Source: Escherichia phage 212
Length of the DNA: 64,000 nt
Sequence record: PQ765507
Strand: one strand, 5' to 3'
The position numbers were made by a program, and so were the translations under genes. How positions within the stretch are numbered: position 1 is the first letter of the stretch; every line of letters starts with the position of its first letter. Below are positions 52,018 to 55,962 of the stretch, piece after piece. A model generated the notes under the pieces. The model was given only the letters and a program-made list of their open reading frames with translations. It ran no database searches and was not told where the DNA came from.

Positions 52018-53892
52018 ATGACCGAATTATTGTCAGAGGTTTTTGAAGGGGAATCTAATATCCCGGCCATTAACCTTTCAAAGTCAAAAGTTCCACAGAT
52101 TTGGAATATCCAGGTCCCGGGGAATGATAATCTTATTGCTCGTATGGTGTCTTACGCATCCGAAGGCGATGCTATTAAACAGGTCAAAACTGGCGATAAG
52201 TATGCACACGTTATTTTGATGTCATTAAATTCAAACGGTACTCCAGCTATTCTTAAAGGTGGTCTTGGTGATAACCCGATTGGAGCAATTAAATCCATTT
52301 TTGATGTAGTTTACGAACAAGTAAAACTGATGAAAATGGATGCAATTATGTTCCGCTTCCCGACCCGCAAAATGAAGGGACAAGAACGAACTATTCAGCG
52401 TGTTCTTGCTCGGCTTATTATGGCCCGTGCCGGCGGTCAGTTCAAAGTTCTGGATGATATGTATCAGTACACGGGTAAACATACTTACGTATTGATTTAT
52501 CGTAAATCCAAACCAATTGAATCTATCGCCGGAATTCCTGGCATCAATACCGAATTGTACACAAAAGTGGAATCGAAAGTCGGTGATGTTTATGTAGACA
52601 AAGCCACCGGCGAAACTGTTACCAAGAATGAAGCTATTGCGGCCTCTATTGCAAAGGTTGAAGAAAAACGTACAGACCAGGCAGTTGTTGTTAAAACCAA
52701 GTTTTCTAAACGCGCAGCTATTAACGCATTGTATTCGGGGAACGAACCAACTGGCCTTGCTAAATTCTCACCAGAGCACAAAGAGATTTATACAAAACTC
52801 TCGACCAGTAGCGCAGTGCATTCAGCAGATGATGCCAGAGAAAGTCAGATAGCTAAAGCTTCAATAAAAGTAATCGACCGTGCGGGTGATGAGTATGCAG
52901 ACTATTTTGATTTAGTTGCACAAGGTGGTGTTGGTGAAGATAAGACAAAAACTCGTGTAGCCATGGATGTGTTTAATGCTCTTAAAGAAGTTGGCATGGA
53001 ACACAAAATAAGTGAGTTTTCGAACGTCCTGCGGGCCTCAAAGAATCCTGTTGATACATTGCGCAGAGTTGCTGATATGTTGCTTGACGACTCCATTGTG
53101 GGGACCTGGGCGCGCGAAGATAAGACTAAAGAAGCTATTCGTATTATCGCAGATGAAATTTACACCAAGGCCATCCAACCATTATTTCATATCTCCGACA
53201 ACCCTGAAATAACTGAAGACCAGGCCGAAGCAATTAAGGCATATACTCGCGGAAAATATACTGCAATCAATAATTTCCTGCTAGGGAAAGCTGACGCAAA
53301 AGAAAGCGAAATCAAAATGATTTCCGATATGGATAAAGTATTTGAAAACGGTGTTAAGCTTCCAAAAGGAACTATCATCTACCGTGCTCAAGTCATGCCA
53401 ACCGATATGGCAATTAATTCCATCAAAAATAAAACGATGTATCTTCCTATGTTTGCGAGTACATCTCTGGCGCCAAATATTTTCGGTCGTATGGGCCACA
53501 CCGCTGCGAACCTTGACCCAAATGCATTATCGAGTGATATCGATGATGGGACAATCGATGCAACTATTAAAAGTGCAACTGGTTCGGCGAAACCTACAAT
53601 CAAGATTGGTATGATTATCAAAGGTGCAGAAAATATCAAGGTAGTTATTCCTGGTGACCTGGCAAACTGGTCCGTTGAAACCGAAGTTATTCTTCCACGT
53701 GGAACAATGCTTAAGATTGATAAAGTCTATGGTGCTACAGCTGGCATGATGGGTTCGATGGGTAAATACATTCTCGTTGAATGCTCTATCTTAGAAAATG
53801 ACCAGATAGACGAATCAAATTCGCTTTTGAAAAAATATGACAGAATCTCTTATGATTTGTCTATGGAAAAACTTGTACACCTTCTCAATTAA
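52018..53892 (+). CDS. Alt-like mono-ADP-ribosyltransferase, paralog 1
   Basis: 624 aa; N-terminal half parallels the next gene; ART-like S-T-S (FASTSLAP) and E-x-E (VETEVILPRG) motifs. Confidence 0.7.
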   Translation: MTELLSEVFEGESNIPAINLSKSKVPQIWNIQVPGNDNLIARMVSYASEGDAIKQVKTGDKYAHVILMSLNSNGTPAILKGGLGDNPIGAIKSIFDVVYEQVKLMKMDAIMFRFPTRKMKGQERTIQRVLARLIMARAGGQFKVLDDMYQYTGKHTYVLIYRKSKPIESIAGIPGINTELYTKVESKVGDVYVDKATGETVTKNEAIAASIAKVEEKRTDQAVVVKTKFSKRAAINALYSGNEPTGLAKFSPEHKEIYTKLSTSSAVHSADDARESQIAKASIKVIDRAGDEYADYFDLVAQGGVGEDKTKTRVAMDVFNALKEVGMEHKISEFSNVLRASKNPVDTLRRVADMLLDDSIVGTWAREDKTKEAIRIIADEIYTKAIQPLFHISDNPEITEDQAEAIKAYTRGKYTAINNFLLGKADAKESEIKMISDMDKVFENGVKLPKGTIIYRAQVMPTDMAINSIKNKTMYLPMFASTSLAPNIFGRMGHTAANLDPNALSSDIDDGTIDATIKSATGSAKPTIKIGMIIKGAENIKVVIPGDLANWSVETEVILPRGTMLKIDKVYGATAGMMGSMGKYILVECSILENDQIDESNSLLKKYDRISYDLSMEKLVHLLN

Positions 53893-53901
53893 GGGTTAAA
53901 A

Positions 53902-55962
53902 ATGTCTGAACAATTAAATGAACTCTTTGACAAATATATCGAAGCCTTCGGTTATCCTGTCATTAATATGAATCCAAAATACAAGGTCCCACAGGTTTGG
54001 CAATTCGGTGTTCCTGGGACCAATTCTCTTATGGCCCGTTTGATGCAATTCACGGGCAAAGAAACAGTTAAACAATATAAACGTGGTGATGCAATTGCCG
54101 AGGTATTCCTGCTCTCCGGGACTTCACACGGCCACGCTGTTCCTCTGAAGGGTGGTCTAGGTGAAAAACCTCTTGATGCGATTAACCTGATTTTTGTTAC
54201 AGTCTGGGAAAGCATTAAACTAGGCAAACCTGATGTAGTCTTGTTCCGTTTCCCATCCAAAAAGATGAAAGGACAAGACCAAGCTGTTATTCGTATTATG
54301 AATCGACTGATTCAAATGAAAACCAGCGGGCGTTATCATGTTCTTCCGAATGCTTCTGGCCTCGGTAAAAAGAACGCTTATGTAATTATGTACAAAAAGG
54401 GTGTTGACCTGCTTTCGGTTGATGGTATGCCACCAGTCCCTGAGAAATATCAAAAAGTCGAAACTAAAGTCGGTGATGTATTCACTAATAAAGATACAGG
54501 CGCGCAAGTCTCCAAACAAGAAATCGCAGCCGAAGTTCTGATTGACGCAGCAAACAAAAAGACCGATGCTGCTGTTGCCCAGAAAACTAAAATCAGTCGC
54601 CGAGCTATTGCACAAGCCCAGTACGCTCCAAGTGATTCCGTGCCCGATGGCTGGGACGAAATTGATGCAGAAGCTGCTAAGTTTAGTCGACCGGCTACGG
54701 CAGAACTTATCGATGATTATGAAGAACTGGAAATTTTTGTTCGACCTTCTGAAACGAATACTATGGCTCGTATGCGCGCAGCAGATACGGCTATGCGTGC
54801 AAATGGTGTTTGGAAAGAAGAAATTCGTGTTGAAGACTCTGACCCAATTTTTAACCGTATGCATCGTGAACTTAAACGTGCTCCAGTTGGTAGTATGAAG
54901 CAGATGCAGATTTTTGCCGAATCATGTGCAGAGATTCTTAACCTTCGCAAAGCCGCATTTATCGAAAGAAAAATGAATGATGCTCCTCCTAACCTGGATG
55001 CAGCCACTTATGCAGCCACGCTCTGGGAAGAAGAATACACAAGCGCCATTCGTGTTGCAGTTAAAGACTTTGCAGAAGAAGCATCAGAAAATACTCTTAA
55101 TTTCACAGCAGGGTATACTGACAACCGTTTCCATTATGGCCAGCGTGAAGCAATTGCAGATTATTGTGGAGCCAACTATGTCGATATTAATAATTATTTG
55201 ATGGGTAATTATTATGAAGAAGACGCCGAATTCCTAAATCTAGACAGAGTTGTCGAAACAATTAAGGAATTGGATTCGGCCTTTGAAATTGGACATAAGT
55301 TGCCACCTAATACAACTCTTTGGCGTGGTCAATATTTAAACGTTCCTACATTTAATAAAATTAAACAGTCGAAATTATTCTATTTTAGGAACTATGTATC
55401 AACATCATTTAAACCAATTATCTTTGGTGGCTGGGTGGCGAACGTTGCTATGGCCGCAGTTCATCAGGACTATCGCGACGGGACATCTTTCCAGGCTGAT
55501 GACGAAATTGTTTTACCAAATATCCCAGGTGCAAACCCAGACAACGCAATGATTCATGTCGGTTGGAAAATTTCTGGGGCAGACTTAATTAACGTAATTG
55601 TTCCTGGGGAATTGTCAGGCAACCCATCCGAGCAGGAAGTTATTCTTCCACGTGGAACTGTAGTTAAGATTACCAAAATTACGGATGCTTCGTATAAAGG
55701 AAACGCGAACGTCAAAATGCTGGAAGCTGATATCCAGACCACTGACCAACTGGATGAAAATGCAGTTATCTATGATGGTGATGTGTTGATGGAAACTGGT
55801 GAGCTTGTCGTTTATCAGGGCGAGGAAACAGAAGAGCCAGTAGAATCTGTTGACTTTGCATCGTTTGCATCCTCTGGGGTAACGAAGAAAGTCAATCAAG
55901 GTCTTGGTATTCTTGCTAGTTGTATTAATTTGGAAGCTATTCCTCCTAAATTCCTTTCGTAG
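53902..55962 (+). CDS. alt: Alt mono-ADP-ribosyltransferase (virion-packaged RNA polymerase modifier in T4)
   Basis: 686 aa (T4 Alt 682 aa) at the T4 alt position between 30 and 54; S-T-S (VSTSFKP) and E-x-E (SEQEVILPRG) motifs. Confidence 0.75.
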   Translation: MSEQLNELFDKYIEAFGYPVINMNPKYKVPQVWQFGVPGTNSLMARLMQFTGKETVKQYKRGDAIAEVFLLSGTSHGHAVPLKGGLGEKPLDAINLIFVTVWESIKLGKPDVVLFRFPSKKMKGQDQAVIRIMNRLIQMKTSGRYHVLPNASGLGKKNAYVIMYKKGVDLLSVDGMPPVPEKYQKVETKVGDVFTNKDTGAQVSKQEIAAEVLIDAANKKTDAAVAQKTKISRRAIAQAQYAPSDSVPDGWDEIDAEAAKFSRPATAELIDDYEELEIFVRPSETNTMARMRAADTAMRANGVWKEEIRVEDSDPIFNRMHRELKRAPVGSMKQMQIFAESCAEILNLRKAAFIERKMNDAPPNLDAATYAATLWEEEYTSAIRVAVKDFAEEASENTLNFTAGYTDNRFHYGQREAIADYCGANYVDINNYLMGNYYEEDAEFLNLDRVVETIKELDSAFEIGHKLPPNTTLWRGQYLNVPTFNKIKQSKLFYFRNYVSTSFKPIIFGGWVANVAMAAVHQDYRDGTSFQADDEIVLPNIPGANPDNAMIHVGWKISGADLINVIVPGELSGNPSEQEVILPRGTVVKITKITDASYKGNANVKMLEADIQTTDQLDENAVIYDGDVLMETGELVVYQGEETEEPVESVDFASFASSGVTKKVNQGLGILASCINLEAIPPKFLS

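What the first reader, a model, noticed from the sequence alone, without database searches (positions are those of the whole stretch)
52018..55962. Two tandem Alt-like ADP-ribosyltransferase genes behind a late promoter
ORFs 52018..53892 (624 aa) and 53902..55962 (686 aa) are paralogs with similar N-terminal halves (KVPQIWNIQVPGNDNLIARM... versus KVPQVWQFGVPGTNSLMARL...). Both keep ART-like S-T-S and E-x-E motifs (FASTSLAP/VETEVILPRG and VSTSFKP/SEQEVILPRG). An exact TATAAATA late promoter sits at 51985. Two potentially active injected ADP-ribosyltransferases imply diversified host targets.
Basis: partly seen in the sequence, partly recalled or inferred. Interest (0 to 1): 0.6.

Follow-up and report, generated by a model that had tools for sequence, protein, structure and literature searches.

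The report
Tandem Alt ADP-ribosyltransferase genes, already annotated
These are the altA and altB genes of an SP18-like T4-type phage: two old paralogs of the T4 Alt enzyme, which is packed in the phage head and injected to ADP-ribosylate host proteins. The pair is real and probably functional, but it is already annotated and common among T4 relatives.

Summary
ORFs 52018-53892 (624 aa) and 53902-55962 (686 aa) are paralogs (33% identity, E 1e-86). Both match Pfam ADPrib_exo_Tox and the PHROG Alt family, and both keep the catalytic Arg, S-T-S and E-x-E. An exact TATAAATA lies at 51985-51992, behind the gene 30 hairpin, as in T4.

The window is 99.4% identical to Shigella phage SP18 (Gaprivervirus), where these genes are already annotated alta and altb. 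Tandem alt genes also occur in T6 and JS98 (two copies) and WG01 (three). T4 keeps remnants of a second copy, and the duplication is noted in the literature.

New detail:
- **Indel:** altA is a clean 1,890-bp indel, absent from VR20. Only five database records hold an AltA above 95% identity.
- **Lineage:** its nearest relative is the first alt gene of Dhakavirus WG01 (63%).
- **Processing sites:** both proteins have L/I-x-E motifs aligned with the two gp21 cleavage sites mapped in T4 Alt. AltA's C-terminal propeptide would be 25 residues rather than 67.
- **Selection:** both genes are under purifying selection (dN/dS 0.03 and about 0.1).
- **Divergence:** the helical middle region is only 16% identical, which fits different targets.

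Packaging, activity and targets are untested. The finding is ordinary and of low novelty.

The parts
51961..51980 (.). GC-rich hairpin (AAAAGGGCTTCGGCCCTTTT) just after the DNA ligase (gene 30) stop codon. It looks like a terminator.
   Evidence: Sequence. The terminator scan called it on the - strand. The same hairpin precedes alt in T4, VR20, JS98 and WG01.
51985..51992 (+). T4-type late promoter, TATAAATA
   Evidence: Exact match. Identical position in VR20 and T4; JS98 and WG01 have CATAAATA. There is no other exact copy between 51993 and 62559, so altB and alt.-3 have no late promoter of their own.
52006..52010 (+). Shine-Dalgarno-like AAGGA for altA
   Evidence: Sequence.
52018..53892 (+). 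altA, 624 aa. Predicted layout: N-propeptide aa 1-7; Alt N-domain about aa 8-235; variable helical region about 236-395; ART domain about 396-599; short C-propeptide 600-624.
   Evidence: ORF; PF03496 at aa 397-589; PHROG 802; AF2 model with pLDDT 80.9; Foldseek matches to Vis, C3, iota, CDTa and VIP2; annotated alta in SP18.
52030..52038 (+). AltA L5-S-E7, the predicted N-terminal gp21 cleavage motif
   Evidence: Aligns with T4 Alt ITE-6. The T4 site is documented in PMC5694885. 60 of 62 homologs have L/I-x-E here.
53383..53385 (+). AltA catalytic Arg456 (YR)
   Evidence: At least 90% conserved. Aligns with the catalytic Arg of a solved ADP-ribosyltransferase (4xsg), Certhrax and the C. perfringens binary enterotoxin a component.
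53458..53466 (+). AltA S481-T-S483 motif
   Evidence: S481 is invariant in 62 homologs.
53677..53685 (+). AltA E554-T-E556 (E-x-E, ARTT loop)
   Evidence: Both Glu are invariant. They align with the Q-x-E or E-x-E of solved toxins.
53806..53814 (+). AltA I597-D-E599, the predicted C-terminal gp21 cleavage motif
   Evidence: Aligns with T4 Alt LTE-619. It would leave a 25-aa propeptide.
53902..55962 (+). altB, 686 aa, same layout as T4 Alt. It includes the long C-terminal tail with YDGDVLMETGE (aa 624-634) and ILASCINLEAIPPKF (aa 670-684).
   Evidence: ORF; PF03496 at aa 413-606; PHROG 802 matched over its full length; annotated altb in SP18; tail coordinates.
53914..53922 (+). AltB L5-N-E7, the predicted N-terminal gp21 motif
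55324..55326 (+). AltB catalytic Arg475 (WR)
55399..55407 (+). AltB S500-T-S502 motif
55630..55638 (+). AltB E577-Q-E579 (E-x-E)
55750..55758 (+). AltB L617-D-E619, the predicted C-terminal gp21 motif (67-aa propeptide)
   Evidence: Same alignment column as T4 LTE-619.
55994..56317 (+). alt.-3, 107 aa, DUF5498. It is the last gene of the unit and its function is unknown.
   Evidence: Pfam PF17602, E 1.2e-33; annotated alt.-3 in SP18, JS98 and T4.
56319..56340 (+). Intrinsic terminator between alt.-3 and the convergent gene 54
   Evidence: Terminator scan: 9-bp stem followed by a T run.

Best explanation
This is a late transcription unit of an SP18-like Gaprivervirus, made of a promoter, altA, altB, alt.-3 and a terminator. 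It encodes two anciently diverged paralogs of the T4 Alt enzyme.

The proposed mechanism has four steps:
- Late in infection, RNA polymerase carrying the phage late sigma factor starts at TATAAATA (51985) and transcribes both genes on one mRNA.
- Both proteins enter the prohead core. The prohead protease gp21 trims each at an N-terminal L-x-E (residue 7) and at a C-terminal L/I-D-E (residue 599 in AltA, 619 in AltB).
- The mature enzymes stay in the head and enter the next host cell with the DNA.
- There each uses NAD+ to mono-ADP-ribosylate arginines of host proteins through an R / S-T-S / E-x-E active site.

AltB belongs to the T4 Alt lineage, so RNA polymerase alpha Arg265 is its most likely main target. 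AltA belongs to a different and rarer ART lineage with an unrelated helical middle region, so it most likely has a partly different set of targets.

Shown here: gene structure, homology, motifs, the predicted fold of AltA, synteny, purifying selection and the indel. Inferred: late co-transcription, packaging, cleavage, injection, activity and targets.
For: - **Homology and motifs:**. The AltA model's C-terminal domain matches R-S-E toxins (Vis E 8e-7; C3, iota Ia, CDTa, VIP2; target-normalised TM about 0.6 for the single-domain toxins).
- **Arginine specificity:** both carry E-x-E rather than Q-x-E. The specificity rule itself comes from established knowledge of C3-like versus arginine-specific ARTs.
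- **Promoter and synteny:** the same ligase, hairpin, late promoter, alt, alt.-3 and gene 54 order as T4. No exact late-promoter copy lies inside the unit, and the altA-altB gap is only 9 nt with an AAGGG ribosome-binding site.
- **Processing:** T4 Alt is cut at ITE-6 and LTE-619 (PMC5694885; PMC9026906). AltA and AltB have L/I-x-E in both alignment columns. So do 60 of 62 homologs at the N-terminal column and 57 of 62 at the C-terminal column.
- **Both genes are maintained:** altA has 55 synonymous and 6 nonsynonymous differences between the window and PSD2001 (dN/dS 0.03). altB has dN/dS 0.05-0.18.
- **Different lineages:** in the ART-domain tree AltB groups with T4 Alt, the upstream T6 copy and JS98 AltA. 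AltA groups with WG01 gene 201, then with JS98 AltB and the downstream T6 copy. The middle regions are 16% identical.
- **T4 Alt biology:** PMC2988021.
Against: - There are no expression, virion proteome or enzyme data for either protein, in this phage or in SP18.
- AltA lacks the conserved extreme C-terminal box (LLASxIDxxDxPxKF) present in nearly all other Alts. If that tail is needed for targeting to the prohead core, AltA may not be packaged.
- AltB was not modelled in 3D. Its fold rests on sequence only.
- The ART tree is a neighbour-joining tree of about 220 columns. I did not compute clade bootstrap support, only resampled nearest neighbours.
- Target differences are inferred from divergence alone. 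T4 Alt is itself promiscuous, so the two target sets may overlap heavily.
Confidence: 0.6

Rival explanations
1. The two paralogs are redundant. Both are packaged and active, and both mainly modify the same host target (RNA polymerase alpha Arg265 plus the usual promiscuous set). The second copy adds dose or robustness rather than new targets.
For: Both have the same catalytic motifs and E-x-E. T4 Alt is promiscuous, and T4 ModA also hits Arg265, so overlapping ARTs exist in one phage (PMC2988021). VR20 and most of the 70 related records matched at DNA level lack altA, so it is dispensable.
Against: Overall identity is only 33%, and 16% in the middle region. The two ART domains fall in different ancient lineages that coexist in T6, JS98 and WG01. 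altA is under very strong purifying selection (dN/dS 0.03), which is unexpected for a spare copy.
Confidence: 0.22
2. AltA is an active ART that is made late but is not packaged or injected, because it lacks the long conserved C-terminal propeptide. It would act in the producing cell late in infection.
For: AltA and its WG01 relative lack the YDGDxLMETGE and LLASxIDxxDxPxKF tail found in almost all other Alts. The role of the Alt propeptides (targeting, tethering or control of activity) is an open question (PMC5694885).
Against: AltA keeps the N-terminal L-x-E propeptide and the whole conserved N-domain (64-71% identical to Dhakavirus Alts). It also keeps an I-D-E motif at the position of the T4 C-terminal cleavage site. 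In T4, short N-terminal capsid targeting sequences are what bring internal proteins into the prohead core (PMC5694885).
Confidence: 0.12
3. One of the two is a catalytically dead pseudo-enzyme or a decaying duplicate, like alt.-1 and alt.-2 in T4.
For: T4 carries remnants of an old alt duplication (annotation note). In phage DCP80 the second gene is annotated as only a 426-bp CDS in what looks like a rearranged or incomplete record.
Against: Both ORFs are full length and keep Arg, S-T-S and E-x-E. Both are under purifying selection. Both pass the Pfam threshold.
Confidence: 0.03

Closest known systems
altA and altB of Shigella phage SP18 (NC_014595 / GQ981382; Gaprivervirus sp18)
   Same: The same genes. 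The 4.2-kb region is 99.4% identical in DNA. AltA is 99.7% identical in protein. The order ligase, alta, altb, alt.-3, gene 54 is the same.
   Different: Only a few substitutions. The window's altA is closest to phage P896 and its altB is closest to SP18, so the locus is mosaic.
Bacteriophage T4 Alt (682 aa), the injected internal head mono-ADP-ribosyltransferase
   Same: Same position between genes 30 and 54, with the same hairpin and late promoter. Same domain order, the same R / S-T-S / E-x-E motifs, and L/I-x-E motifs at both mapped gp21 sites. AltB shares the long C-terminal tail and groups with T4 Alt in the ART tree.
   Different: Identity to T4 Alt is low. N-domain: AltA 47%, AltB 38%. 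ART domain: AltA 33%, AltB 39%. Middle region: AltA 10%, AltB 22%. T4 has one intact copy plus remnants (alt.-1, alt.-2). AltA has a 25-residue C-propeptide instead of 63.
Tandem Alt arrays in other Tevenvirinae: T6 (two genes), JS98 altA/altB, WG01 (three genes); also Bp7 and Ac42 in the literature
   Same: Two or three full-length alt genes lie head to tail behind one late promoter at the same locus. The duplication is noted in PMC4177764. AltA's nearest relative is WG01 gene 201: 63% overall and 68% in the ART domain.
   Different: The combination here, a short-tailed AltA type followed by a divergent T4-type AltB, appears in only five database records. VR20 and most other related records have altB alone.
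C3-like and binary-toxin ARTs of the R-S-E clade (Vis, C3bot, iota Ia, CDTa, VIP2, Certhrax; Pfam PF03496)
   Same: Fold and catalytic motifs of the C-terminal domain.
   Different: About 13-20% sequence identity. The Alt proteins add a phage-specific N-domain, a helical middle region and propeptides. Delivery is by phage head ejection, not secretion or a pore-forming B component.

Membership tests
R-S-E clade ADP-ribosyltransferases (Pfam PF03496 ADPrib_exo_Tox; Alt/VIP2 family) | Sequence match above the curated family threshold | tested here: met
   AltA scores 58.5 bits and AltB 71.3 bits against a cut-off of 23.4.
R-S-E clade ADP-ribosyltransferases (Pfam PF03496 ADPrib_exo_Tox; Alt/VIP2 family) | ART fold of the catalytic domain | tested here: met
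   Foldseek matched the AltA AF2 model (pLDDT 80.9) to Vis, C3, iota Ia, CDTa and VIP2, with E 8e-7 to 1e-4 and probability 1.00. AltB was not modelled. Its fold is inferred from sequence.
R-S-E clade ADP-ribosyltransferases (Pfam PF03496 ADPrib_exo_Tox; Alt/VIP2 family) | Catalytic Arg preceded by an aromatic residue | tested here: met
   AltA Y455-R456 and AltB W474-R475 align with the YR of the solved ART 4xsg, Certhrax and the C. perfringens binary enterotoxin a component.
R-S-E clade ADP-ribosyltransferases (Pfam PF03496 ADPrib_exo_Tox; Alt/VIP2 family) | S-T-S motif | tested here: met
   AltA 481-483 and AltB 500-502. The first Ser is invariant in 62 homologs.
R-S-E clade ADP-ribosyltransferases (Pfam PF03496 ADPrib_exo_Tox; Alt/VIP2 family) | E-x-E in the ARTT loop (the arginine-specific type) | tested here: met
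   AltA E554-T-E556 and AltB E577-Q-E579. Both Glu are invariant in the family alignment.
R-S-E clade ADP-ribosyltransferases (Pfam PF03496 ADPrib_exo_Tox; Alt/VIP2 family) | NAD+-dependent ADP-ribosyl transfer | not testable with these tools
   Needs an enzyme assay.
T4 Alt-type packaged head protein | Alt-specific N-terminal domain | tested here: met
   PHROG 802 matches from residue 1 in both. AltA's own database cluster carries the precomputed PF26846 annotation. A profile of the N-domain finds only 70 clusters in 1.84 billion proteins, always at the N-terminus.
T4 Alt-type packaged head protein | N-terminal propeptide ending in a gp21 L/I-x-E site (T4: ITE-6) | tested here: met
   AltA LSE-7 and AltB LNE-7 lie in the same alignment column as the T4 site. 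This tests the motif only. Cleavage itself was not tested.
T4 Alt-type packaged head protein | C-terminal propeptide removed at a gp21 site (T4: LTE-619, 63 residues) | tested here: inconclusive
   Both have the motif in the homologous column (AltA IDE-599, AltB LDE-619). AltB keeps the conserved 67-residue tail. AltA has only 25 unrelated residues and lacks the conserved terminal box.
T4 Alt-type packaged head protein | Late promoter and position between gene 30 and gene 54 | tested here: met
   TATAAATA at 51985 and synteny with T4, VR20, JS98 and WG01.
T4 Alt-type packaged head protein | Presence in the virion and injection with the DNA | not testable with these tools
   Needs virion proteomics. 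I found no proteome for SP18-like phages in the paper library.

The most novel reading that the evidence does not exclude
The alt locus may be a copy-number-variable effector cassette rather than a fixed RNA-polymerase modifier. AltA represents a rare ART lineage found in five Gaprivervirus records and in the WG01 subgroup of Dhakavirus. Its unrelated helical middle region would direct the enzyme to a different host protein, for example a defence or toxin protein, as has been reported for T4 Alt and MazF (recalled from memory, not checked here). Gain or loss of altA would then change host range. A weaker side reading is that the conserved Alt N-domain is a cryptic GNAT-like second enzyme rather than only a packaging module.
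Probability: 0.2. Interest if true: 0.5.

Novelty: already known. Interest (0 to 1): 0.2.

Why it matters
Alt is the textbook example of a phage enzyme injected with the DNA to reprogram the host. Many T4 relatives carry two to four diverged copies, and close relatives differ by a clean presence or absence of one copy. This suggests the locus is an adaptable effector array. That would be worth testing experimentally, by target profiling of each paralog and host-range tests of altA-plus and altA-minus phages. As a genome-scan finding it adds little. The genes are annotated in a 99.4% identical reference genome, and the duplication has been remarked on in print.

Tried and rejected
- **Solved Alt structure:** phmmer of AltB against PDB sequences found nothing at E <= 0.01. 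Only a family profile reached the C3 and binary-toxin ARTs.
- **N-domain fold:** I modelled aa 1-240 alone (pLDDT 87).
  - Foldseek gave nothing significant (best E 5.6e-3, TM <= 0.4).
  - A profile against PDB sequences gave nothing, and Pfam gave no N-domain hit at E <= 1.
  - I rejected the GNAT assignment as unproven.
- **N-domain as a portable delivery module:** a profile search of 1.84 billion proteins found only 70 clusters. Of ten atypical hits, four have a Pfam ART domain above threshold. P0127 has a sub-threshold partial match at its C-terminal end. P0173, P0174 and P0178 show degenerate ART-like motifs by eye. P0177 has no recognisable C-terminal domain, and P0175 and P0182 are short proteins with no hit. 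There is no clear support.
- **NCBIfam and PADLOC:** no hits for AltA, AltB or alt.-3.
- **Repeats that could explain the altA indel:** I found only short conserved coding stretches (50 nt at 72%, 36 nt at 89%). There are no flanking repeats and no homing endonuclease gene. The junction sequences do not say whether altA was inserted here or deleted in VR20-like phages.
- **Literature:** no paper names AltA and AltB of phages, and I found no virion proteome for a phage with two Alts. The JS98 genome paper (PMC2168658) is not held.

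
Full report
**1. Observation**

All quoted peptides are present.

BLASTP aligns the two proteins over 642 columns at 33% identity, E 1e-86. By region, identity is 43% in the N-terminal 235 residues, 16% in residues 236-395 and 30% in the ART domain.

TATAAATA lies at 51985-51992, 26 nt before the first ATG. It directly follows a GC hairpin (51961-51980) that closes the DNA ligase gene.

**2. What the locus is**

The 4.2-kb region is 99.4% identical to Shigella phage SP18 (Gaprivervirus sp18, Tevenvirinae). There the genes are already annotated alta and altb, flanked by gene 30 (DNA ligase) and by alt.-3, 54, 48 and 29. The window has the same neighbours.

The layout of hairpin, late promoter, ribosome-binding site and alt is the same in T4, VR20, JS98 and WG01. 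No other exact TATAAATA lies inside the unit. A terminator follows alt.-3 at 56319-56340. The simplest reading is one late transcript covering altA, altB and alt.-3.

**3. Are both real ADP-ribosyltransferases?**

- **Family matches.** Both pass the Pfam gathering score for PF03496 and match the PHROG Alt family from residue 1.
- **Conservation.** In an alignment of 62 Alt homologs, the first Ser of S-T-S and both Glu of E-x-E are invariant, and the Arg is at least 90% conserved.
- **Catalytic alignment.** A profile of that alignment, searched against PDB sequences, places the Alt 'YR' on the catalytic Arg of a solved ADP-ribosyltransferase (4xsg), Certhrax and the C. perfringens binary enterotoxin a component. 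It places 'ExEviLPRG' on their Q-x-E or E-x-E ARTT motif.
- **Fold.** An AlphaFold2 model of AltA (pLDDT 80.9) has an alpha/beta N-domain, a long helical region and a C-terminal domain. Foldseek matches that C-terminal domain to Vis, C3, iota Ia, CDTa, VIP2 and Certhrax (E 8e-7 to 1e-4).
- **Residues.** AltA has R456, S481-T-S483 and E554-T-E556. AltB has R475, S500-T-S502 and E577-Q-E579.

E-x-E rather than Q-x-E is the arginine-specific signature. That rule comes from established knowledge of the family, not from a test here.

AltB was not modelled in 3D.

**4. Are both genes maintained?**

- **altA.** Between the window and phage PSD2001 there are 55 synonymous and 6 nonsynonymous differences (dN/dS 0.03).
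- **altB.** dN/dS is 0.05-0.18 across five alleles.

Neither gene is decaying.

**5. Packaging signals**

T4 Alt is built into the prohead core at about 40 copies and trimmed by the prohead protease gp21 at ITE-6 and LTE-619. This removes 6 N-terminal and 63 C-terminal residues (PMC5694885; PMC9026906).

| Protein | N-terminal motif | C-terminal motif | C-propeptide length |
|---|---|---|---|
| T4 Alt (mapped) | ITE-6 | LTE-619 | 63 |
| AltA (predicted) | LSE-7 | IDE-599 | 25 |
| AltB (predicted) | LNE-7 | LDE-619 | 67 |

The AltA and AltB motifs lie in the same alignment columns as the T4 sites. Of the 62 homologs, 60 carry L/I-x-E at the N-terminal column and 57 at the C-terminal column.

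AltB keeps the conserved tail (YDGDVLMETGE ... ILASCINLEAIPPKF). AltA and its WG01 relative do not: their C-propeptide would be short and unrelated in sequence. So packaging of AltB is a strong inference, and packaging of AltA is a reasonable but weaker one.

**6. How common is the arrangement, and where does altA come from?**

Tandem full-length alt genes are widespread:
- T6 has two, both with the catalytic motifs.
- JS98 has alta and altb.
- WG01 has three.
- Other Dhakaviruses show three or four tblastn places.
- T4's alt.-1 and alt.-2 are annotated as remnants of an old duplication.
- A 2014 paper notes the duplication in Ac42, JS98 and Bp7 (PMC4177764).

In the phage database, 1,221 records hold 1,817 Alt-like places.

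What is less common is this particular pair. Relative to VR20, the window carries a clean 1,890-bp extra segment (52012-53901). This is altA plus the spacer, placed between the shared promoter and ribosome-binding region and the altB ATG. Most of the 70 related records matched at DNA level cover only about 55% of the region, as VR20 does. Only SP18, P896, PSD2001 and DCP80 have this altA.

Its nearest relative is the first gene of the WG01 array: 63% overall, 71% in the N-domain and 68% in the ART domain.

In a neighbour-joining tree of the ART domain, AltB groups with T4 Alt, the upstream T6 copy and JS98 AltA. AltA groups with WG01 gene 201, then with JS98 AltB and the downstream T6 copy. 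So the paralogs represent old lineages, not a recent duplication. DNA similarity between the two genes is limited to two short conserved stretches. Whether altA was gained here or lost in VR20-like phages cannot be decided from the junctions.

**7. Mechanism and rivals**

The best-supported account has five parts: late co-transcription, entry into the prohead core, gp21 trimming at both ends, injection with the DNA, and arginine mono-ADP-ribosylation of host proteins.

AltB is the T4-Alt-like enzyme, and RNA polymerase alpha Arg265 is its likely main target (PMC2988021). AltB also has a small hot spot: 8 of its 25 variable residues fall in a 12-residue loop between S-T-S and E-x-E.

AltA probably has a partly different substrate set, because its middle region and its ART insert are unrelated to those of AltB.

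Rivals:
- Redundancy of the two enzymes (0.22).
- AltA made late but not packaged (0.12).
- One copy catalytically dead (0.03, largely refuted).

**8. Novelty and score**

The genes, their names and their predicted function are in the reference annotation of a 99.4% identical genome. Tandem alt genes are common and have been remarked on in print.

Added here:
- the indel boundary;
- the lineage assignment of the two paralogs;
- the mapping of both gp21 motifs;
- the short C-propeptide of the AltA type;
- the selection estimates.

These refine a known picture and do not change it. Novelty: already known. Interest: 0.2.

Noticed in passing
window 55519-55554 (AltB aa 540-551): Eight of the 25 amino-acid positions that vary among five Gaprivervirus AltB alleles fall in one 12-residue loop between the S-T-S and E-x-E motifs (NIPGANPDNAMI versus DMPDARRDHVMM). 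The rest of the protein changes mostly synonymously. This could be a local recombination patch or diversifying selection on a substrate-contact loop.
   Followed up: partly
window 52018-55962 compared with L001 (SP18), L007 (PSD2001) and L008 (P896): The locus is mosaic among close relatives. The window's altA is nearly identical to P896 (0 synonymous differences). Its altB is closest to SP18 (18 synonymous differences) and far from P896 (45). This implies a recombination breakpoint near the altA/altB boundary.
   Followed up: partly
[not shown]
   Followed up: partly
window 55994-56317: alt.-3 (107 aa, DUF5498) is conserved downstream of alt in SP18, VR20, JS98, WG01 and T4. It appears to share the late transcript. 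It has no known function and no hit in NCBIfam or PADLOC.
   Followed up: partly
L009 (phage T6, NC_054907) 1298-5452: Phage T6 carries two full-length tandem Alt-like genes (697 and 685 aa). Both start MELITELFD and both have YR, STS and EAEVILPRG. T4 has only one intact copy.
   Followed up: yes
window 49291-50139: The gene 30.2-like ORF (282 aa) ends in a Pro/Tyr/Gln/Asn-rich tail with a tandem repeat (NPAYPYQY twice). It has no Pfam match.
   Followed up: no
L003 (phage DCP80, PQ671644) 3528-7430: In this 141-kb record altA is intact, but the second alt gene is annotated as only a 426-bp CDS. It is followed by rIIA-side genes, and the ligase gene is preceded by a gp37 long tail fibre gene rather than the 30.x genes. 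This suggests a rearranged or misassembled genome.
   Followed up: no
P0174 (1142 aa) and P0177 (541 aa), metagenomic proteins: A few distant proteins have the Alt N-domain followed by long regions without a Pfam ART match. P0174 may hold degenerate ART-like motifs plus a large extra C-terminal part. P0177 has no recognisable C-terminal domain.
   Followed up: partly
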